From a phage: a stretch of 64,000 nt of DNA. Where the stretch lies: the sequence record PV806337.1. One strand, 5' to 3'. The notes under the pieces were generated by a model. It was not told where the DNA came from. It made no database searches and saw only the letters and a list, made by a program, of their open reading frames with translations. Numbering within the stretch: the stretch's first letter is position 1; each line of letters starts with the position of its first letter. Positions 14,888-61,291 of the stretch are shown here, in pieces. A program made the translations under genes and the position numbers.

Positions 14888-14904
14888 GGAAAAATAAAAA
14901 TTTC

Positions 14905-14933
14905 TTGATAAAATTTTCTAATACTATTATAAT
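14905..14933 (+). promoter_or_regulatory. sigma70-type promoter upstream of Dit gene
   Basis: TTGATA -35, 17-bp spacer, TATAAT -10; followed by RBS AAAGAGGAGAAATTAACT and ATG at 14961. Confidence 0.55.
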
Positions 14934-14960
14934 ATTGTTATTAAAGAGGAGAAATTAACT

Positions 14961-15575
14961 ATGAGATTACCAGACCCATACACGAATCCAGAACTTTCAG
15001 GCTTAGGATTCGAAAGTGTTAACCTGATTGATAATGACCCAGTAATTCGTGATGAGTTACCAAATGGTAAAGTTAACGAAGTTAAGGTATCTGCTCAATA
15101 CTGGGGTATAAATATTTCTTATCCAGAATTATTTCCAGATGAATATAGTGTTCTAGATGCTTTTATTCTAGAATACAAAAGGACTGGTGGTTATATAGAT
15201 GTTATATTACCCCAATACGAAGCTTTTAGAGTTAGAGGTAATACTAGTCTAGTAAATATACCTGCTGGACAGAAGGGTTCTAATATAACTATGAATACAA
15301 AAGGACTTCTTACAGGTACTCCAAAACCGGGGGATCTATTTAAGCTGTCTAACCACCCAAAAGTATATAAAATAACATCATTTAACAAATCAGGTAATAC
15401 ATGGTCTATAAACTTATACCCTGATTTATTTATAACTACTACTGGAGCGGAGAAGCCAGTATTTAATGGAATACTATTTAGAACAAAACTCATGAATGGT
15501 GATGCTTTTGGATCTACACTAAATAATAACGGAACATATTCCAACATCTCATTAAATTTACGGGAAAGTCTATGA
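14961..15575 (+). CDS. distal tail protein Dit (pb9-like)
   Basis: 204 aa immediately after TMP; strong RBS. Confidence 0.7.
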   Translation: MRLPDPYTNPELSGLGFESVNLIDNDPVIRDELPNGKVNEVKVSAQYWGINISYPELFPDEYSVLDAFILEYKRTGGYIDVILPQYEAFRVRGNTSLVNIPAGQKGSNITMNTKGLLTGTPKPGDLFKLSNHPKVYKITSFNKSGNTWSINLYPDLFITTTGAEKPVFNGILFRTKLMNGDAFGSTLNNNGTYSNISLNLRESL

Positions 15576-23299: not shown

Positions 23300-25030
23300 A
23301 TGGTAACTAAAACAGTAATTCCTACGGATATTACAAAACTTAAAAATGAGTCACTTAACAAGAATAATAACTTAAGTGACTTAGCAGACCGTGCAGCAGC
23401 ATGGCTAAATGTGTGTCCTATTGGGTCCACCCCTCTTGCGGGGGACCCTGTTGGGGACTACGATGCTGCAACCAAACGTTGGGTAGAGAATAAGATTAAC
23501 ACTGGTACAGTCGGCCCCACTATGAATGGTGTTATGAACTACGGCGTTGGTGATTTCCACCTTCGAGATAGTCGTGCATATATTCAACCATACGAAGTCG
23601 TTTCTGACGGACAGCTTCTTAATAGGGCTGACTGGCCTGAACTTTGGGCGTATGCACAAATGGTTGGGGCTATAGATGATTCAGTTTGGTTAGGAGATAA
23701 ATTCCAGCGCGGTAAGTACTCATCAGGTAATGGAACAACAACCTTTCGTGTTCCAGATAAGAATGGGGTGCAGGAGGGATCAATACGCGCTCTTTATGGC
23801 CGTGGAGATGGTGGGAATAGTGGTGCAAATGGGCAACTGTTCGAATCCGCTGCGCCTAATATTACAGGTTTTTTCACCACATATGCCTCTCAAACCTATG
23901 CCCAGGCATTAGGACATACAGGTGGTTGCTTTAGTGCAAACAATAATGCGTTTCCTGACGGAAGAGGTGACGGAATCGCTCCAGGGTCTGCAGCTCTTGC
24001 TGGACGTTATAATACCTGCGACTTCAATGCCTCAATATCAAGTCCGATTTACGGGGCATCAACAGATGAGATTCTTACACGAAACTTTGTCGGCGTCTGG
24101 GTAATCCGTGCTTCTGGTGGGTTCGTGGCAGCAAATACATCATGGAGTGTTATTAACGCTGATAAAACAACCCCCGATTCAGGTGTTGTTGTTTCTGGTG
24201 GTAGTGTTAAATCTGAATATAAATCTCCCAGTGCAAGTGTAACAGCGGAACTAAAATCAAGTAAAGTAATTAATGGTGCATGGGGTGTTAGCTTAACTAT
24301 AACAGATGATAGAGGGATCCCTGTAAGCATTAAGTATGACAGTAATGGTCAGTTTTCAACATCTCATAGGCCATCTGGAGTCGGTACTGGGAGTTCCTAT
24401 ACTCATTGCGCTTATCGCGCGCCAGACTGGTGGAATAACACAGCATATAGTGCCTTCGTACCAATTCTTGGAGGTGGTAGCGGTAATTCACTAAAGAACT
24501 ATAGATCTTTTGCTTGTTTTGGACAAATATCTTATCCTGATTCTAGTAATAGTTATCCTAGAGCTGCAATTGCTCAAGTAAGGGATTGGGCACTACCAGA
24601 TGGTGAACAAGGTAACGGCAAGAGTATTACCGTGTTTACGTTTATTGATAATTCATTTGACCTTCAATATGGGTACAACGATGGTTCGCTAAACTATATT
24701 TTTTCAAAATCTCCAATTTGTGATGAAAGATTAAAGAAAAATATTGAATCCATTGATACTAATATTGCAATAAGTAATATTAAGCAGATGTCATATAAAT
24801 CATACATCTATAAAAATGACGAGAATGAACAGGTGCGCCGTGGTTTTATAGCTCAGGATTTACAGAAAATAGATCCCCAATATGTACGGGAATATGGAGA
24901 TCCTGGAAGAGAGAAAACGTTGGCCATTGATGAAAACGTTATGTTGCTTGATTCAGTTGCTGCGGTTAAGTGGCTTATTAATAAAGTTGAGGAGTTGCAA
25001 GAAGAAATAAATGTATTGAAAGCTAAGTAA
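23300..25030 (+). CDS. L-shaped tail fibre protein, distal receptor-binding part with C-terminal intramolecular chaperone domain (LtfB-like)
   Basis: 576 aa; N-terminal fibre motif (YDAATKRWVENKI); tail-collar-like segment (ADWPELWAYA...FRVPDKNG); C-terminal ~110 aa resemble S74-type auto-cleaving chaperone domain (…IAQDLQKIDPQYV…LLDSVAAVKWLINKVEELQEEINVLKAK). Confidence 0.8.
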   Translation: MVTKTVIPTDITKLKNESLNKNNNLSDLADRAAAWLNVCPIGSTPLAGDPVGDYDAATKRWVENKINTGTVGPTMNGVMNYGVGDFHLRDSRAYIQPYEVVSDGQLLNRADWPELWAYAQMVGAIDDSVWLGDKFQRGKYSSGNGTTTFRVPDKNGVQEGSIRALYGRGDGGNSGANGQLFESAAPNITGFFTTYASQTYAQALGHTGGCFSANNNAFPDGRGDGIAPGSAALAGRYNTCDFNASISSPIYGASTDEILTRNFVGVWVIRASGGFVAANTSWSVINADKTTPDSGVVVSGGSVKSEYKSPSASVTAELKSSKVINGAWGVSLTITDDRGIPVSIKYDSNGQFSTSHRPSGVGTGSSYTHCAYRAPDWWNNTAYSAFVPILGGGSGNSLKNYRSFACFGQISYPDSSNSYPRAAIAQVRDWALPDGEQGNGKSITVFTFIDNSFDLQYGYNDGSLNYIFSKSPICDERLKKNIESIDTNIAISNIKQMSYKSYIYKNDENEQVRRGFIAQDLQKIDPQYVREYGDPGREKTLAIDENVMLLDSVAAVKWLINKVEELQEEINVLKAK

Positions 25031-25033
25031 AAG

Positions 25034-25068
25034 AAAACCCCAGAGGGATATCCCTCTGGGGTTTATTA
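25034..25068. terminator. bidirectional rho-independent terminator at late/early module junction
   Basis: perfect palindrome AAAACCCCAGAGGGA-TA-TCCCTCTGGGGTTT flanked by A-run and T-run; lies between convergent LtfB and dut genes. Confidence 0.85.
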
Positions 25069-25091
25069 TTATTATTTATTTGATACGTAGA

Positions 25092-28734: not shown

Positions 28735-29692
28735 ATTTCGCAGCTCTAGCCAAGATTCTATCAATGTCGCCTTGAGATAGCTTCTCGACTTCACGGAAGT
28801 AAAGTTCAAGTTCGCCCAACATATCAAGATCAACAAGATTTAACTTAGCATCTTTAGTAACTCGATGGTTAATCTTCTTGTCTAATAAATCAGAGTCTTT
28901 GATAGACTTTAATTGAACAACGTCACCAGTAACTTCGTAGACTACACGATCATAATCACTAGGTTCCATTTCTTCACCTGCTCCGATTGTTTTACGAATC
29001 AGTTGTGGTAAATCACCTAGTTCAATCCATTCTACTTTTAATGTGTCGGTATCAATGATAAAGCAACCATTTGTACCTTTTGTGCGTTCTCTATGGAACG
29101 ATGTAGTTAATGGAGACCCCGGGTAGAGAAGTCTAGTAGATCCGATAGTCTGGCTATTAGTATAAGAATGTAAGTCACCAGCAATTACAGTATCATAACA
29201 GTTGTACTTAGTTAGATCAATTTCTGGTTTTACATGTGGAGGGATTTCACCACGAACATGCGTGAAACATAGTTTTGATTCAGCAGGTTTCCACTTAGAT
29301 TTATGGATTTCGTCATACGGAACAATATCAAATTCAGGGGAACGATATGGTTTGGTAATTACTTCCCACTTACCACTCGTTACTTTATTAATAACTCCTG
29401 CATAATGATATAGGCATGAAATGGTTTTCGTTAACATTTCATGATTTCCAGTAAAGATTTTGCCTGGATGGTCAAGTCTTGACATGAACTGTTCAAGCAG
29501 TTCTACTTCTTCTGATGACGGGTCGGAATGGTCAAATAAATCACCACCAATAATATGAAGATCACAGTTATGATTATGGAATACATCATTTAAACGGCCT
29601 CCCAACATTAAGAATCTCTTCTTTTGCCATTCTTTGGGAATTTTGTCCTGCCCAAGTTTTATATGATGATCTGCGCTAAAGAGTATTTTCAT
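28715..29692 (-). CDS. sbcD: SbcD/Mre11-like nuclease (D12-like)
   Basis: 325 aa; calcineurin-like phosphoesterase motifs ADHH, GGDLFD, GNHE. Confidence 0.8.
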   Translation of the reverse strand: MKILFSADHHIKLGQDKIPKEWQKKRFLMLGGRLNDVFHNHNCDLHIIGGDLFDHSDPSSEEVELLEQFMSRLDHPGKIFTGNHEMLTKTISCLYHYAGVINKVTSGKWEVITKPYRSPEFDIVPYDEIHKSKWKPAESKLCFTHVRGEIPPHVKPEIDLTKYNCYDTVIAGDLHSYTNSQTIGSTRLLYPGSPLTTSFHRERTKGTNGCFIIDTDTLKVEWIELGDLPQLIRKTIGAGEEMEPSDYDRVVYEVTGDVVQLKSIKDSDLLDKKINHRVTKDAKLNLVDLDMLGELELYFREVEKLSQGDIDRILARAAKYVKDYN

Positions 29693-30204
29693 CTTTGTGC
29701 ATACTTTCGCTTTATCTCTTGAATATCTATTCCTTGTTTCAGTTCACTCAAAACTTGGTCTAAGATGCCCTCGAGATCTTTTCGTTCTTTACTAGCCATT
29801 ATATGGTAGTGTTTTTTATTATAGTACAAACGTAGAGTATATGTACTTGATTTGGCATTGTAGCTTATATTTCCAGAATAATTTTCTATATTCTGCATGT
29901 TAGATCGGTGATCACCATTTTTGAGATTGTCCCACCTATTATCGTGTCGTATGCGATTATCATGGTCAATTTCTTCTGGCATCTCCCCGGTTTGCATTAA
30001 CCAAATAAGTCTGTGCAACCTATATTTAGTTCCAAATACCCTAGCGTCTAAATATCCAGACTGCTTAGAGGGAGTTCCCACAGGTTTTCCTACACAATCT
30101 TTAGGAAGCCCATTTGACCATACTTTATAGGTTACAATACCTGTACCTGGATCATATGAGAATCTACGATGACATTCATCGTACAACTTAACTAAATCAT
30201 CCAT
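29689..30204 (-). CDS. HNH homing endonuclease
   Basis: 171 aa; IDHDNRIRHDNRWDNL…GDHRSN HNH motif; inserted between sbcD-like and D11-like genes. Confidence 0.7.
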   Translation of the reverse strand: MDDLVKLYDECHRRFSYDPGTGIVTYKVWSNGLPKDCVGKPVGTPSKQSGYLDARVFGTKYRLHRLIWLMQTGEMPEEIDHDNRIRHDNRWDNLKNGDHRSNMQNIENYSGNISYNAKSSTYTLRLYYNKKHYHIMASKERKDLEGILDQVLSELKQGIDIQEIKRKYAQR

Positions 30205-30207
30205 AAG

Positions 30208-30233
30208 TTAAAAAGAAAGGGGCCGAAGCCCCT
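30208..30233 (-). terminator. rho-independent terminator (reads on - strand)
   Basis: GGGGC-cgaa-GCCCC hairpin; on - strand followed by TTTCTTTTT. Confidence 0.6.
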
Positions 30234-30240
30234 CTATTTA

Positions 30241-43355: not shown

Positions 43356-44028
43356 GTTTCAGGGCAGCCTTAACAGCTTCGTTAATCAACGTAATAATTT
43401 CTTCACGAGTCCACTTATATCCTAGAGATTTTACGTCTACCCCTAACTTTTCCAGATGTTTAACAGAAGCCAGCTCGTAATTCATATAATGAACGTTCTG
43501 TTGTTTGCCTTCTGATAGAAGCCATACACGGTAACAACCAACAGGGTTATCCATTGCTTTTTTGATTTCACCGATACACTGGTATCCAGGAACCCAAACA
43601 AGCTCACCAACTGCAAATTCTTCTGCTACAGCATCATCAGGAATAATTGGAGGATTCAATGGATCTACAATATCATTCAAACGAAGCAGAGCACCATATC
43701 GTTCCAGAACAGATTTAACCATTGCTACAGAGCGGTAATTACGATCGGCAATCTCTTCGAAAGAATCACCAGATAAATACTGCTCAATAACGTTAGCTAA
43801 CTCAATGCCTTCAATGAGTGTGCCACGTTTCTTTTTCTTCATTTCGGCAACTTGAATCTGGCGGTCTTGCCACTCCTCAATCATCCTTTCCATAGTTGGA
43901 TTGGATGATACGCCGAGCATTTCACATGCTGCTTTCTTGGTACCACCGTTCTCCAGATGCTCTATAACCTTTTTAAAGACTTCATCTGGGATTTCATGGA
44001 TATGTTTCTTTCTACGAGAACCGGCCAT
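43324..44028 (-). CDS. putative DNA-binding transcriptional regulator (two HTH-like motifs)
   Basis: 234 aa; N-terminal HTH (GTKKAACEMLGVSSNPTMERMIEEW) and sigma-region-4-like segment (SFEEIADRNYRSVAMVKSVLERY). Confidence 0.5.
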   Translation of the reverse strand: MAGSRRKKHIHEIPDEVFKKVIEHLENGGTKKAACEMLGVSSNPTMERMIEEWQDRQIQVAEMKKKKRGTLIEGIELANVIEQYLSGDSFEEIADRNYRSVAMVKSVLERYGALLRLNDIVDPLNPPIIPDDAVAEEFAVGELVWVPGYQCIGEIKKAMDNPVGCYRVWLLSEGKQQNVHYMNYELASVKHLEKLGVDVKSLGYKWTREEIITLINEAVKAALKLDKEKGKRRE

Positions 44029-44059
44029 ATTTAAACTCCTCTCTCAAATTTATGAATCT

Positions 44060-44088
44060 ATTATACAGAAAAATTTTCCTGAAAGCAA
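44060..44088 (-). promoter_or_regulatory. T5-type sigma70 promoter (resembles classic T5 N25-type promoter)
   Basis: - strand AAATTTATTTGCTTTCAGGAAAATTTTTCTGTATAATAGATTCATAAATTTGAGAGAGGAG; TTGCTT, 17-bp spacer, TATAAT. Confidence 0.8.
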
Positions 44089-57204: not shown

Positions 57205-57232
57205 AAGGAGATCTTCGGGTCTCCTTTTTCTT
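57205..57232 (+). terminator. rho-independent terminator after nrdA
   Basis: AGGAGATC-ttcg-GGTCTCCT hairpin followed by TTTTCTTTG. Confidence 0.75.
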
Positions 57233-57243
57233 TGAAATTTTAC

Positions 57244-57272
57244 TTGCTAATCGCTACCAGATTTGCTATAAT
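57244..57272 (+). promoter_or_regulatory. T5-type sigma70 promoter upstream of nrdB
   Basis: TTGCTA, 17-bp spacer, TATAAT. Confidence 0.75.
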
Positions 57273-58449: not shown

Positions 58450-58979
58450 TTACAGCAATGTATGCAGTTGGGCCGAATGGGGAGTTCGGCCTCCGCGGTA
58501 AACTTCCATGGGGTTCCTTCAAAGAAGAACTAGATGCTTTCTATTCTCAACTGGACGTGTTGAATCCAGATAACATCATCATTGGTGCGGGTACTTATTT
58601 AGCTCTTCCATACGCCGTTAGAGAACGTATGATTGGAGCTTCTGACCTATTTATTCGTGCTGATCGTCCACTGCCAGATGATATTACACATGATATTTAC
58701 ACCCCAATTTCTAAGATTGGGGATGCTTTACCTACATTTCTGAAAGATCAGCAGACAGTAGTTCTAGGTGGTGCTAACCTTCTTCTAGAAATGTATCAAT
58801 ATGGTCATATTGAAAGTGCTTTTGTATCCACAATCTTTAGTAATCAAAAACTAGAGGCAGATGTATATCTGGATAATACGATTCTAGATTACAACTATGA
58901 ATCTACTCGTTTAGTTTACGCAACTGGCGCAAACAGTGATAACAGCCTGCGATTTGTACAGGAATTGGTTACTTATTAA
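58446..58979 (+). CDS. frd: dihydrofolate reductase
   Basis: 177 aa; DHFR-like N-terminus ([18 protein letters not shown]), glycine-rich IIGAGTY and VVLGGANLL segments; position between nrdB and thyA. Confidence 0.7.
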
Positions 58980-59833
58980 TGGATCAGTATATAGAAGTTG
59001 GAAAACGTATTCTATCAGAAGGTCAGTGGGTAACGAATCCCAGAACAGGGGTTCGTTGCCTCACCATTATTGATGCAGATTTTACTTTTAACGTAGGTGC
59101 AGGTGAATTCCCACTTATTACTACTCGTAAGGCGTTTGCAAAACAAGCAATAATGGAAATGATTGGGTATCTACGTGGGTATGATTCAGCAGCACAATTC
59201 CGCGCTATTGGTGTTAACACATGGAATGCTAATGCAAATGAAAACTTAGCTTGGCTAGACAATCCATACCGTAAAGGTGAGGATGATATGGGACGAGTCT
59301 ATGGTGTTCAAGGACGTCAGTGGACTAATTCCGATGGTCTTATGTTTGACCAACTAGTCAAGATTTATCATAATCTGAAAAAGGGCATTGATGATCGTGG
59401 GGAAATTCTAACCTTCTGGAATCCGGGGGAGTTCTCAAAGGGTTGCTTACGTCCATGTATGCATACTCATCAGTTCTCTATTTTGGGAGATACATTATAT
59501 CTGAACTCTTTCCAGAGATCTAATGACTTCCTGTTAGGCCAAGTATTTAACATGGTTCAGTGCTATACGCTTCTAGCATTAATGGCACAGATTACAGGCC
59601 TTAAACCAGGAATTGCACGCCAGAAGATTATCAATCTTCATATCTATGAGGATCAGTATAATGTTTTGATGGAGCACAAGCAATTCGATCGTGAACCTTT
59701 TGCACTCCCAACTCTAGAAATTAATCCAAATATTAAGACTTTAGATGACGTATTGACTTGGGTAAGTAAGGATGATTTTACTGTTCAAGGTTATGAACAT
59801 CATCCAGCTATTGCATACCCATTCACTGTTTAA
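58979..59833 (+). CDS. thyA: thymidylate synthase
   Basis: 284 aa; active-site cysteine context [10 protein letters not shown]; overlapping start with upstream stop. Confidence 0.85.
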
Positions 59834-59846
59834 TTTAAAATATTAT

Positions 59847-59876
59847 TTGCTTTAATCCCAGTACTTATAGTATAAT
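59847..59876 (+). promoter_or_regulatory. T5-type sigma70 promoter upstream of HNH gene
   Basis: TTGCTT, 18-bp spacer, TATAAT. Confidence 0.6.
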
Positions 59877-59903
59877 ATCTCCTATATACATTATAGGAGA
59901 TAT
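59875..59903 (+). promoter_or_regulatory. perfect 12-bp inverted repeat overlapping -10 and Shine-Dalgarno of HNH gene
   Basis: ATATCTCCTATA-tacat-TATAGGAGATAT; right arm contains the SD AGGAGA 8 nt before ATG 59908. Confidence 0.7.
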
Positions 59904-59907
59904 ATTT

Positions 59908-60462
59908 ATGATCGTACAAGAGGGGTGGACAAAAGAATCCGCACGTAATAGGTTTATCTATAATCCTCTTACTGGGGAGATTTTAAATAGAATTAACAGT
60001 GGTAGGGCTAAGAAAGGACAGATAGCCGGGTACCTAGACAAGTCTACTGGATATATTCGGGTAACATTGGCAGGAAAAAGAATGAAAGGACATCAGTTAG
60101 CCTTCTTATACATGGAAGGATATATACCTGATACTATAGATCACATCAACAGAATAAAATCTGATAATAGATGGTGTAATTTAAGGGAATCTTCACCCCA
60201 AGAGAATGCTAGAAATATTAAAGCAAGAAGTAAATCTGGTTATTTAGGGGTTGGGTGGCATAAGCCAAGTCAAAAATGGTGGGTATATACTAAAGATGTA
60301 AAAGGAGCGCAGATTAATGGTGGTTACTTTGATTATACGAAATTAGAGGAAGCAGTCAATAAAGCTAATGAACTCCGTCAGCAATTACATGGACATACTG
60401 CTATTTTAGAAGTTTTTAATCCTGATCAACCAATACCTACCATAGAGGAACTTAATAAATGA
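59908..60462 (+). CDS. HNH homing endonuclease
   Basis: 184 aa; IDHINRIKSDNRWCNL HNH motif; paralogous in motif to the HNH at 29689-30204; inserted between thyA and RNase H. Confidence 0.7.
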   Translation: MIVQEGWTKESARNRFIYNPLTGEILNRINSGRAKKGQIAGYLDKSTGYIRVTLAGKRMKGHQLAFLYMEGYIPDTIDHINRIKSDNRWCNLRESSPQENARNIKARSKSGYLGVGWHKPSQKWWVYTKDVKGAQINGGYFDYTKLEEAVNKANELRQQLHGHTAILEVFNPDQPIPTIEELNK

Positions 60463-60935
60463 GTGTTTTCCACATTTACACAGATGGTGCTTGTAAGTCT
60501 AACCCAGGTCCAGGTGCTTGGGGATTTATTGTCTATGATGATAACGATGATCGTTTAGGTTCTAAATCTGGATATAGTCCTAAAACTACAAATAATGAGA
60601 TGGAACTCACGGCTATTGTAGAGGCTCTACGTTGGTCAGTTAAAAAAGATAATAGACCAATTGTTATCTATACTGATTCTGCTTATTGCAAAAATGGTAT
60701 GGAAAGTTGGATGTTTTCTTGGCAAAGGAAAGGCTGGAAGAAAGCAGATGGTGAAGTTCCTCTTAATCTAGAACTTTGGCAGGAAGCATTTAAATTAACA
60801 CAGCAGTATATCAACTTTCATAATACTAACCCTACCTTTATTAAGGTTAAAGGACATTCTGGTATTAGTGGTAATGAAGCTGTAGACGCCTTATGTAACA
60901 CAGTTATTACTGAAGCTGAAATGGCTGAGATGTGA
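60459..60935 (+). CDS. rnh: ribonuclease H
   Basis: 158 aa; RNase H fold motifs (IYTDGAC, NNEMELTAIVEAL, IYTDSAY, …AVDALC). Confidence 0.8.
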   Translation: MSVFHIYTDGACKSNPGPGAWGFIVYDDNDDRLGSKSGYSPKTTNNEMELTAIVEALRWSVKKDNRPIVIYTDSAYCKNGMESWMFSWQRKGWKKADGEVPLNLELWQEAFKLTQQYINFHNTNPTFIKVKGHSGISGNEAVDALCNTVITEAEMAEM

Positions 60936-60956: not shown

Positions 60957-60985
60957 TTGCTTAAAGCCCTCTAATTTAGTATAAT
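60957..60985 (+). promoter_or_regulatory. T5-type sigma70 promoter
   Basis: TTGCTT, 17-bp spacer, TATAAT; flanked by 9-bp inverted repeat AAAGCCCTC / GAGGGCTTT (60963-61012). Confidence 0.7.
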
Positions 60986-61012
60986 ATTCGTATTGAAAGT
61001 GAGGAGGGCTTT

Positions 61013-61291
61013 ATGAGAATTTATAACTCAAATTCATTAGGATTTAAACCGTTGAGAAAACGTGCACAATCACCTCGTCAAATAAGAAAGGCTAATATTG
61101 GTGAGCCAGAAACACGTCTTCCACCTCCTCCGGAACAACGTTTAGTTTATCTGGATGAAGAATTAGCTGAACGCGAAAGAAAAGCTCAAGAAGAGATTGA
61201 GCGTAAGAAAATGTGTACTGCTCCAGCATATAATAAAGGAGCGTATCAATATGTTTCCGATGCAGAACAAGCCAAGATGGTTGGTAGATAA
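61013..61291 (+). CDS. hypothetical basic protein
   Basis: 92 aa; GAGGAGGG RBS; PPPP segment and charged helix. Confidence 0.5.
   Translation: MRIYNSNSLGFKPLRKRAQSPRQIRKANIGEPETRLPPPPEQRLVYLDEELAERERKAQEEIERKKMCTAPAYNKGAYQYVSDAEQAKMVGR

What the first reader, a model, noticed from the sequence alone, without database searches (positions are those of the whole stretch)
59847..59910. HNH homing endonuclease whose Shine-Dalgarno lies inside a perfect 12-bp inverted repeat
ATATCTCCTATA-tacat-TATAGGAGATAT (59875-59903) would sequester the SD AGGAGA in any transcript reading through from thyA. Transcripts from the gene's own promoter (-10 at 59871-59876) would start inside the left arm and leave the SD free. 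This resembles the tight translational control known for phage homing endonucleases, for example I-TevI in T4.
Basis: partly seen in the sequence, partly recalled or inferred. Interest (0 to 1): 0.5.

Follow-up and report, generated by a model that had tools for sequence, protein, structure and literature searches.

The report
Hairpin hiding a phage endonuclease's ribosome site
In this T5-like phage, a selfish HNH endonuclease gene has a promoter placed inside a perfect 12-bp hairpin that would hide the gene's ribosome-binding site on transcripts arriving from the upstream thymidylate synthase operon; this is the design already known from T4 homing endonucleases, so it is a tidy new example and not a new mechanism.

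Summary
ATATCTCCTATA (59875-59886) / TATAGGAGATAT (59892-59903) is a perfect 12-bp inverted repeat with a 5-nt loop. About 0.08 such repeats are expected per window by chance. Its right arm contains the SD AGGAG, 8 nt before the ATG (59908) of an HNH_3 endonuclease gene. A consensus T5-type promoter (TTGCTT-18-TATAAT, 59847-59876) should start transcription at about 59883-59886, inside the left arm.

The window is a Tequintavirus. The HNH gene, its promoter and the hairpin form one diverged cassette between thy and rnh. This cassette replaces the terminator, promoter and small ORFs found in HNH-less relatives, so read-through from thy is plausible.

Folding gives an SD unpaired probability of about 0 in read-through RNA and about 0.3 in promoter-proximal RNA. 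Opening energy is 18-20 versus about 6 kcal/mol. Two orthologues that are 25% diverged keep the hairpin: two stem changes are G·U-compatible, one breaks a near-terminal pair, and loop length varies.

The mechanism matches the T4 I-TevI/mobE scheme. However, the internal promoter looks early-class, like the upstream operon's, so a temporal switch is not supported. Transcript starts are unmapped, covariation is thin, and a weak-terminator role cannot be excluded.

Verdict: new member of a known kind, modest interest.

The parts
58979..59833 (+). thy (thymidylate synthase), last gene of the nrdB-frd-thy unit that would supply read-through transcripts. Its last ~135 nt belong to the diverged block.
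   Evidence: ORF; PF00303 E = 1.2e-68; identity to EH7 drops from 97-100% to 78-88% from about 59699 onward.
59837..59846 (+). A/T-rich UP-like tract AAAATATTAT upstream of the -35, as in the other T5-type promoters of the window.
   Evidence: Promoter table: the same AAAAwTTTww context occurs at the PN25-like and other promoters.
59847..59852 (+). -35 hexamer TTGCTT.
   Evidence: Invariant in all alleles while the spacer diverges.
59871..59876 (+). -10 hexamer TATAAT (18-nt spacer; 17 nt in EH7). Its last two bases are the first two of the left arm.
59883..59886 (+). Predicted transcription start (7-10 nt after the -10, most likely A59884). Inferred, not mapped.
   Evidence: Inference from sigma-70 geometry and from the PN25-identical promoter in the window. 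Folding is insensitive to the exact start between +6 and +10.
59875..59886 (+). Left arm (anti-SD) ATATCTCCTATA.
59887..59891 (+). Loop TACAT. The orthologues have 4 nt (EH7) and 7 nt (S.Inf 5-2).
59892..59903 (+). Right arm TATAGGAGATAT, containing the Shine-Dalgarno AGGAG (59895-59899).
59861..59917 (+). Predicted outer imperfect helix (59861-59874 with 59903-59917) that would also pair the AUG in read-through RNA. Weakly supported.
   Evidence: MFE pair list, z = -3.8. The polymorphic sites 59865 and 59905 break its pairs. There is one compensated pair, C59864-G59914 to U-A in EH7 and S.Inf.
59908..60462 (+). Free-standing HNH (HNH_3, weak AP2-like C-terminus) homing-endonuclease gene, 184 aa. 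Its stop overlaps the rnh start (ATGA).
   Evidence: Annotated 'HNH homing endonuclease' in ESCO30, GEC_vB_N3/N5/N7 and vB_Sen_I1.
60459..60935 (+). rnh (RNase H), the downstream gene served by the same promoter. It has its own SD GAGGAA inside the HNH 3' end.
59699..60458 (+). Extent of the diverged cassette block (thy 3' end + promoter + hairpin + HNH) relative to the EH7 allele.
   Evidence: Sliding identity: 63-88% inside the block, 91-100% outside. Right junction exactly at the rnh ATG. Left junction against HNH-less genomes at TAATTTAAA, after the thy stop.

Best explanation
The free-standing HNH homing-endonuclease cassette between thy and rnh carries its own promoter/anti-SD module.

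Transcripts that begin upstream (promoter at 57244, nrdB-frd-thy) meet no terminator. They transcribe the left arm 59875-59886, which pairs at once across a 5-nt loop with the right arm 59892-59903. The SD is then locked in a -14.5 kcal/mol hairpin, so 30S subunits cannot load. On these RNAs the HNH is silent, while rnh downstream keeps its own SD.

RNA polymerase starting at the cassette's own T5-type promoter begins at about 59883-59886, inside the left arm. Those RNAs lack the anti-SD and present an open SD 8 nt from the AUG. HNH translation is thereby tied to the cassette's own promoter and insulated from the host operon.

Shown here: the sequence features, the thermodynamic contrast, the absence of a terminator, and persistence of the hairpin in diverged alleles. 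Inferred: the transcription start, actual read-through, actual translational repression, and the selective reason (limiting endonuclease dosage or cost).
For: - The 12-bp repeat is perfect and exactly covers the SD, with a chance expectation of about 0.08 per window anywhere.
- Hairpin energy is -14.5 kcal/mol, z = -5.2.
- SD unpaired probability is 0.000 in read-through RNA versus 0.31 in own-promoter RNA. Opening energy is 18-20 versus 5.7-6.6 kcal/mol. The same contrast appears in ERZ506993 (16-17 vs 6), EH7 (12-13 vs 3-4) and S.Inf 5-2 (11.5 vs 5.7).
- The promoter matches 12 of 12 hexamer positions with a T5 UP-like context. The -35 and -10 are invariant while the spacer differs at about 8 of 18 positions plus an indel between alleles.
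- There is no terminator between the thy stop and the hairpin. HNH-less relatives have AATAGCCCTTCGGGGCTATT at that place.
- The thy stop lies 41 nt before the left arm, so a terminating ribosome should not melt the hairpin (sequence).
- Alleles with 74-76% aa identity keep the stem. C59879U and A59898G both give G·U pairs. Loops are 5, 4 and 7 nt with different sequences. 88% of cells are paired, against 54% or less when partners are slid.
- Variable arm spacing and G·U-only compatibility favour RNA pairing over a DNA operator.
- The scheme has an experimentally established precedent: I-TevI, I-TevII, I-TevIII, segB and mobE (PMC2988022).
Against: - No transcript 5' ends or expression data exist for this phage.
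- Only three distinct stem variants are found in all databases searched. There are no double compensatory changes in the core stem, and covariation is not significant (86 of 500 shuffles reach it).
- One change (A59902U in EH7 and S.Inf) breaks a near-terminal pair.
- At the block's mean divergence of about 24%, one change in the 10 free left-arm bases is not significantly few (my estimate).
- The internal promoter looks as strong and as 'early' as the upstream one, so the repression would lower dosage and would not time expression. That makes the selective rationale weaker than in T4.
- Other HNH genes in this window and in EH7 lack such a device.
Confidence: 0.55

Rival explanations
1. The hairpin serves mainly as a (weak) intrinsic terminator or 3'-end stabiliser for the nrdB-frd-thy transcripts. 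It would replace the canonical terminator that was lost when the cassette displaced the ancestral thy-rnh intergenic region. On this view the SD lying in the right arm is economy or coincidence.
For: - The hairpin is flagged terminator-like by the consensus scan: 12 pairs, 3 G-C, tail ATTTATGATC with 5 T in 8.
- HNH-less relatives have a terminator at the equivalent place.
- A nearly identical hairpin in phage ECBP2 (CTATCTCTTATA-ATGTA-TATAGGAGGTAG, extended to 15 bp) is followed by ATTTTTATTTAT and sits between genes, with the next gene's SD elsewhere. That is a plausible terminator.
Against: - The stem base is four A-U pairs. The tail starts with A and has only three consecutive U.
- The phage's obvious terminators are G+C-rich stems with UUCG or GAAA tetraloops and T-runs.
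- A terminator role explains neither why the SD is exactly enclosed in all three alleles nor why the promoter start falls inside the left arm.
- An uncalibrated d-score put it lowest among the candidates tested, but that scoring was inconclusive.
Confidence: 0.17
2. The palindrome works at the DNA level as an operator overlapping the transcription start. It would be bound by a dimeric regulator or by the HNH protein itself, giving autorepression as shown for I-TevI.
For: - It is a perfect palindrome placed over the -10 and +1 region.
- I-TevI autorepression at an operator overlapping its promoter is documented (PMC2988022).
Against: - Half-site spacing is not conserved: loops are 5, 4 and 7 nt. 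The S.Inf allele has two DNA mismatches that are G·U in RNA.
- No similarity above shuffled controls was found between the 59853-59907 region and the thy-rnh region of HNH-less genomes, where a homing site would lie. The best match scores 11, against a shuffle mean of 10-10.5 and a maximum of 13.5-16.
Confidence: 0.07
3. The long imperfect helix (59855-59926) in read-through RNA is a processing site (RNase III type) that separates thy mRNA from HNH-rnh mRNA, as in T7 early transcripts.
For: The predicted extended helix has about 30 pairs at -25 to -26 kcal/mol, z = -3.0 to -3.8.
Against: - The outer helix is not conserved in register between alleles.
- Natural polymorphisms at 59865 and 59905 break its pairs.
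- There is no Rfam match.
- I know of no evidence for RNase III sites in T5.
Confidence: 0.04
4. The repeat has no function. It would be a chance or hitch-hiking palindrome in A/T-rich promoter-leader DNA.
For: - Covariation is not significant.
- A second SD/promoter-spacer pairing in the window (60961-69 / 61003-11) has an unconserved left arm.
- Pairing between pre-start sequence and SD is not enriched across 15 promoters (p = 0.33).
Against: - A perfect 12-bp repeat is about 0.08 expected per 64 kb and lands exactly on an SD.
- It is retained across about 25% sequence divergence, with changes concentrated in the loop.
Confidence: 0.1

Closest known systems
T4 I-TevI (td intron) RBS-sequestering hairpin with an internal late promoter (also I-TevII and I-TevIII)
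   Same: A consensus SD about 8 nt before the AUG is buried in the 3' arm of a stable hairpin that forms only on transcripts from upstream promoters. A promoter immediately upstream of the endonuclease ORF starts transcripts that lack the 5' arm (PMC2988022). In both cases the upstream host gene is thymidylate synthase.
   Different: - I-TevI is a GIY-YIG enzyme inside a group I intron. This is a free-standing HNH gene.
- The T4 internal promoter is a late promoter (different temporal class and recognition). Here it is a sigma-70 -35/-10 promoter that looks early-class, like the upstream one, so no temporal switch is evident.
- No operator resembling a homing site was found.
mobE of Aeromonas phage Aeh1 and segB of T4 (free-standing homing endonucleases with RBS hairpins)
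   Same: A free-standing endonuclease gene sits among nucleotide-metabolism or tRNA genes, is transcribed as part of host polycistronic messages, and has its RBS sequestered by a hairpin (PMC2988022). mobE is also an HNH enzyme.
   Different: Those are T4-like myoviruses with late promoters. Here the host is a Demerecviridae (T5-like) siphovirus, and the cassette's promoter also has to drive the downstream host gene rnh.
T4 late genes e, soc, 49, 25 and 26 regulated by RBS hairpins
   Same: The same principle applies: read-through early RNA is translationally silent, and RNA from a promoter inside the hairpin is active (PMC2988022; PMC3014915 listed).
   Different: Those are ordinary phage genes under a temporal switch. 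This is a mobile endonuclease with no demonstrated temporal difference.
T5-family HNH endonucleases (F-TflI/II/IV, I-HmuI-like hegA etc.)
   Same: Protein-level relatives: HNH_3 domain, with 30-55% identical paralogues scattered in T5-like genomes.
   Different: None of the paralogues inspected has its own promoter plus an SD hairpin. They overlap the upstream ORF or sit directly behind a terminator without an SD.
Rho-independent terminators
   Same: A stem-loop followed by a T-rich stretch, lying at the end of an operon.
   Different: The stem base is A-U-rich and the U-tract is poor and interrupted. The stem encloses the next gene's SD and the next promoter's start site.

Membership tests
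RBS-sequestering hairpin with internal promoter (T4 I-TevI / mobE / gene e type) | A stable local hairpin whose 3' arm contains the Shine-Dalgarno sequence of the regulated gene. | tested here: met
   12/12 bp, -14.5 kcal/mol, SD 59895-59899 inside the right arm.
RBS-sequestering hairpin with internal promoter (T4 I-TevI / mobE / gene e type) | A promoter positioned so that its transcripts start within or after the 5' arm. | tested here: inconclusive
   A consensus T5-type promoter predicts a start at 59883-59886, inside the left arm. Folding is insensitive to starts between +6 and +10. No 5'-end data exist.
RBS-sequestering hairpin with internal promoter (T4 I-TevI / mobE / gene e type) | Upstream transcription actually reads through into the hairpin. 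| tested here: inconclusive
   There is no terminator-like site between 57300 and 59874 other than the hairpin itself, and the terminator present in relatives is absent here. Read-through itself cannot be measured with these tools.
RBS-sequestering hairpin with internal promoter (T4 I-TevI / mobE / gene e type) | The internal promoter belongs to a later temporal class than the upstream promoters, giving delayed translation. | tested here: not met
   The -35, -10 and UP-like tract are the same type as the window's other T5 promoters. The discriminator is ATATC (ATATT in EH7), compared with the early-class motif ATATT (PMC7472727). This is sequence-based only, and the late-promoter alignment was not readable.
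RBS-sequestering hairpin with internal promoter (T4 I-TevI / mobE / gene e type) | Translation is repressed on long transcripts and relieved by arm mutations. | not testable with these tools
   Only a thermodynamic prediction is available: an opening-energy difference of 12-14 kcal/mol.
RBS-sequestering hairpin with internal promoter (T4 I-TevI / mobE / gene e type) | Pairing is conserved or compensated in relatives. | tested here: inconclusive
   The stem is kept in 3 variants with two G·U-compatible changes, one broken near-terminal pair and variable loops. Covariation is not significant with 4 sequences.
HNH (His-Me finger) homing endonuclease, free-standing | HNH catalytic motif or domain. 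| tested here: met
   PF13392 HNH_3, E = 3.6e-12, residues 62-102; PHROG 99, E = 2.5e-56.
HNH (His-Me finger) homing endonuclease, free-standing | Presence/absence polymorphism at a fixed intergenic slot among otherwise collinear genomes, with sharp junctions. | tested here: met
   12 of 444 related records carry this allele. Others carry small ORFs or a 53%-identical HNH in the same slot. Junctions are at the thy stop and the rnh ATG. There is a diverged flank in the thy 3' end.
HNH (His-Me finger) homing endonuclease, free-standing | Site-specific cleavage of the endonuclease-less allele and preferential inheritance. | not testable with these tools
   The only hint is a synonymous Ser recoding of rnh codon 2: AGT in genomes with this HNH allele, TCG in HNH-less ones.
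Intrinsic (rho-independent) terminator | G+C-rich stem immediately followed by a run of U. | tested here: inconclusive
   It meets the loose scan. However, it has 3 G-C pairs of 12, an A-U stem base and the tail AUUUAUGAU. The d-score attempt was uncalibrated.

The most novel reading that the evidence does not exclude
The HNH cassette of these T5-like phages carries a self-contained regulatory module that moves with it. The same ~12 nt after the -10 would serve three roles at once: promoter discriminator and start site, anti-SD that silences the endonuclease on host-operon read-through, and a substitute 3' hairpin for the thy message whose terminator the cassette deleted. Meanwhile the module's promoter takes over expression of the host gene rnh. 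That would be convergent evolution of the T4 homing-endonuclease control scheme in an unrelated phage family that uses unmodified sigma-70 promoters. By departing from the early-class ATATT discriminator, the module could also shift the promoter's response to the T5 RNAP-binding protein gpT5.026.
Probability: 0.15. Interest if true: 0.5.

Novelty: new member of a known kind. Interest (0 to 1): 0.3.

Why it matters
If confirmed, this would extend a control scheme established only in T4-like phages to the T5 family. In that scheme a mobile endonuclease is kept translationally silent on host read-through transcripts by an RBS hairpin that its own promoter bypasses. Here the host sigma-70 polymerase does all the transcription, which suggests the solution is a recurrent way for homing-endonuclease cassettes to limit their cost while supplying a promoter for the gene they displaced. 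The practical payoff is small: a well-defined, compact (about 60 nt) promoter/anti-SD insulator that can be tested with simple reporter fusions. It does not open a new question.

Tried and rejected
1. Genome-wide design. I asked whether T5-type promoters generally carry an anti-SD before their start site. For 15 promoter/gene pairs in the window, cognate duplex energies were no better than non-cognate ones (mean -9.2 vs -8.3 kcal/mol, p = 0.33). Only the HNH promoter and the one at 60957 rank first, so I rejected this as a general rule.
2. Missing terminators. I asked whether SD pairing tracks promoters that lack an upstream terminator. It does not: many promoters have neither.
3. Second example. 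The left arm of the 60961-69 / 61003-11 pairing varies among relatives without compensation, so I did not count it as support.
4. Other HNH genes. The window's second HNH (30204..29689) and about 10 HNH genes in phage EH7 show no comparable promoter-plus-hairpin.
5. Operator or homing-site similarity, as for I-TevI. Nothing exceeded shuffled controls.
6. More alleles for covariation. I searched IMG/VR, metagenome contigs, the 5.8-billion-protein set and its contigs, and ran blastn with the 60-nt module.
7. Rfam. There was no meaningful hit.
8. Terminator d-score from memory (d'Aubenton-Carafa form) with modern energies. Even the canonical terminators scored negative, so it is uncalibrated and inconclusive.
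9. T5 late-promoter alignment. Figure S5 of PMC7472727 is held only as an image, so I could not use it to class the promoter.
10. Weak blastn hits in Acinetobacter phages upstream of an HNH gene. These are only A/T-rich similarity.

Full report
**Observation.**
- ATATCTCCTATA (59875-59886) and TATAGGAGATAT (59892-59903) are 12/12 complementary around the 5-nt loop TACAT.
- The right arm contains AGGAG at 59895-59899, 8 nt before the ATG at 59908. That ATG opens a 184-codon ORF (59908-60462).
- The -10 TATAAT is at 59871-59876 and the -35 TTGCTT at 59847-59852, 18 nt upstream, preceded by an A/T tract.
- The pattern occurs once in the window and in none of 100 shuffles.
- Perfect hairpins of at least 12 bp with loops of 3-10 nt occur at two loci in the window, against a mean of 0.08 in 60 dinucleotide shuffles.
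- The isolated hairpin folds at -14.5 kcal/mol with z = -5.2.

**Context.** The window is a T5-like phage (Tequintavirus), 96% identical over this region to Escherichia phage vB_EcoS_ESCO30 and the Salmonella GEC_vB_N phages.
- Gene order: terminator 57205-57226, promoter 57244, nrdB, frd, thy (58979-59833), the promoter/hairpin, the HNH gene, rnh (60459-60935, start overlapping the HNH stop), then another promoter at 60957.
- The ORF is an HNH_3 endonuclease (Pfam E = 3.6e-12; PHROG 99 E = 2.5e-56) with a sub-threshold AP2-like C-terminus.
- Only 12 of 444 related records carry this allele. Others have one or two small ORFs in the thy-rnh slot, or an unrelated ORF followed by a 53%-identical HNH.
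- In the HNH-less genomes sampled that keep a non-coding gap after thy (T5_ev212, Th1, BUCT632), the thy stop is followed by a canonical terminator (AATAGCCCTTCGGGGCTATT) and a different promoter. In IME178 the next ORF begins a few nt after the thy stop and no terminator is seen in the stretch read. Here homology breaks right after TAATTTAAA and the terminator is gone.
- The right junction is exactly the rnh start codon.
- Against the diverged EH7 allele, a block from about 59699 to 60458 is 63-88% identical, inside flanks of 91-100%.
- Promoter, hairpin and HNH therefore behave as one cassette, as expected for a free-standing homing endonuclease gene.

| Allele | SD unpaired, read-through | SD unpaired, own promoter | Opening energy (SD-2..+13), read-through | Opening energy, own promoter |
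|---|---|---|---|---|
| Window | 0.000 | about 0.31 | 18-20 kcal/mol | 5.7-6.6 kcal/mol |
| ERZ506993 | 0.000 | 0.28-0.33 | 16-17 | about 6 |
| EH7 | 0.004-0.007 | 0.53-0.59 | 12-13 | 3-4 |
| S.Inf 5-2 | 0.037 | 0.34-0.38 | 11.5 | 5.7 |

- The exact start position between +6 and +10 does not matter.
- The PN25-identical promoter in the window (44088, minus strand) is known, from my memory of the T5 literature, to start 7 nt after its -10. The same geometry here gives 59883-59884.
- The thy stop is 41 nt upstream of the left arm, so a terminating ribosome should not reach the hairpin.
- No terminator-like site other than the hairpin itself lies between nrdB and the HNH gene.
- The thermodynamic and positional logic is therefore sound. 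Transcription starts, read-through and repression remain inferred.

**Conservation.**
- All close relatives and 8 metagenome contigs have an identical core stem. Their only polymorphisms in the 74-nt intergenic region are at 59865 and 59905, outside the core.
- Two diverged alleles occupy the same slot: EH7, and S.Inf 5-2 with its ENA twin L021 (74-76% aa identity). Both keep the hairpin.
- The left arm has C59879U in both diverged alleles, opposite G. S.Inf additionally has A59898G, opposite U. Both changes give G·U pairs.
- A59902U breaks the second-outermost pair in both.
- Loops are TACAT, ATAC and TGTATAT.
- On the 4-sequence alignment, 88% of cells pair, against 54% or less when partners are slid. 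There is one compensated pair (C59864-G59914 to U-A), and it lies in the predicted outer helix. Covariation is not significant, since 86 of 500 shuffles reach it.
- Variable arm spacing and G·U-only compatibility argue for an RNA structure over a protein-binding DNA palindrome, but the sample is too small for proof.
- The outer helix, which would also bury the AUG (59861-74 with 59903-17), is disrupted by the natural polymorphisms. I regard it as unproven.

**Is it part of a wider pattern?** It is not.
- Across 15 T5-type promoter/gene pairs in the window, pairing between the pre-start region and the cognate SD is no stronger than with non-cognate SDs (p = 0.33).
- Pairing does not track the absence of upstream terminators.
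- The one other striking case pairs 60961-69 with 61003-11 at -21 kcal/mol. Its left arm varies without compensation among relatives.
- The window's second HNH gene (30204..29689, minus strand) sits 4 nt after a terminator T-run with no SD.
- In EH7, the other HNH genes overlap upstream ORFs or follow terminators. The single one with its own promoter has no SD hairpin.
- The 60-nt module occurs nowhere else in the phage collection. The only similar sequence is a hairpin in ECBP2-like phages that looks like a terminator.

**Comparison with the known.** The review of T4 mobile elements (PMC2988022) describes this arrangement for I-TevI, I-TevII, I-TevIII, segB and Aeh1 mobE, and also for the T4 late genes soc, e, 25, 26 and 49. 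A consensus RBS about 8 nt from the AUG is sequestered in a hairpin on early and middle read-through transcripts, and a late promoter placed so that its transcripts lack the inhibitory arm.

The present case shares the architecture. It differs in three ways:
- The phage family is Demerecviridae.
- The enzyme context is a free-standing HNH that also supplies the promoter for rnh.
- Most importantly, the promoter class differs. The internal promoter is a 12/12 sigma-70 promoter with the T5 UP-like tract. Its discriminator reads ATATC (ATATT in EH7), essentially the motif reported for T5 early promoters (PMC7472727).

I therefore see no evidence for an early-to-late switch. The likely effect is insulation of HNH translation from host-operon transcription, which lowers dosage, and not delayed expression. 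I found no operator-like similarity to a putative homing site and no Rfam family.

**Rivals.**
- The hairpin meets a loose terminator pattern, and the cassette removed the ancestral thy terminator, so a weak terminator or 3'-stabiliser role is possible. That role is not exclusive of SD masking.
- Against it as the main role: the A-U stem base, the poor U-tract, and the unexplained coincidence of SD and start site with the two arms.
- A DNA operator, an RNase III site and chance are each less likely. Reasons are given in the rivals section.

**Verdict.** This is a new member of a known kind, confined to one rare cassette, and of modest interest.

Noticed in passing
window 60957-61015: The promoter spacer AAAGCCCTC (60961-69) is complementary to GAGGGCTTT (61003-11), which covers the SD and start of ORF 61013-61291 (PHROG 4593, unknown function). 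Read-through RNA folds at -21 kcal/mol with the SD buried, while own-promoter RNA is open. Among six relatives the left arm varies (CTT, CTA, GCT, AAC) without compensation.
   Followed up: partly
window 29689-30240 (minus strand): A second HNH_3 gene (30204..29689, 34% identical to the first) begins 4 nt after the T-run of a strong terminator (GAGGGGCTTCGGCCCCTTTCTTTTT). It has no recognisable SD. This is a different way of keeping a homing endonuclease at low expression.
   Followed up: partly
window 60459-60464, compared with L002-L006: rnh codon 2 is AGT in the window, ESCO30 and EH7 (which carry this HNH allele), AGC in BUCT632 (a 53% paralogue in the same slot), and TCG in HNH-less genomes. 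This synonymous Ser recoding sits exactly at the cassette's right junction. It is a candidate for target-site immunity, and it hints that the cleavage site spans the rnh start.
   Followed up: no
window 59699-59833: The last ~135 nt of thy are much more diverged from the EH7 allele (78-88%) than the rest of thy (93-100%). This looks like a co-conversion tract adjoining the endonuclease gene.
   Followed up: partly
L003 (T5_ev212) and L004 (Th1), about 1957-1999; L005 (BUCT632), same place: In HNH-less relatives the thy-rnh promoter is enclosed by a perfect inverted repeat flanking the -35. In T5_ev212 and Th1 it is TATATTTAAATTTCA[TTTGCTTATTTAG]TGAAATTTAAATATA. In BUCT632 it is TATATTTGAAATTGTA[TTTGCTTATTAAG]TACAATTTCAAATATA. 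Both arms changed together. Function is unknown: operator, or a hairpin in RNA that escapes the terminator just upstream.
   Followed up: no
window 44088..44028 (minus strand) and 14893-14963 (plus strand): The promoter at 44088 is identical to the classical T5 PN25 promoter. The leader at 14936-14963 (ATTAAAGAGGAGAAATTAACTATGAGA) matches, from my memory, the 'RBSII' of pDS/pQE expression vectors. Both are consistent with a close T5 relative.
   Followed up: no
window 25028-25071: This is the largest palindrome in the window: AAACCCCAGAGGGATATCCCTCTGGGGTTT, with a 13-bp perfect stem and 4-nt loop. It is flanked by A/T runs on both sides and looks like a bidirectional terminator.
   Followed up: no
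L028 (Escherichia phage ECBP2, NC_018859.1 26280-26306): An unrelated podovirus has an almost identical hairpin core (CCTATCTCTTATA-ATGTA-TATAGGAGGTAGG) followed by ATTTTTATTTAT between two genes. It is apparently a terminator, and the next gene's SD lies further downstream.
   Followed up: partly
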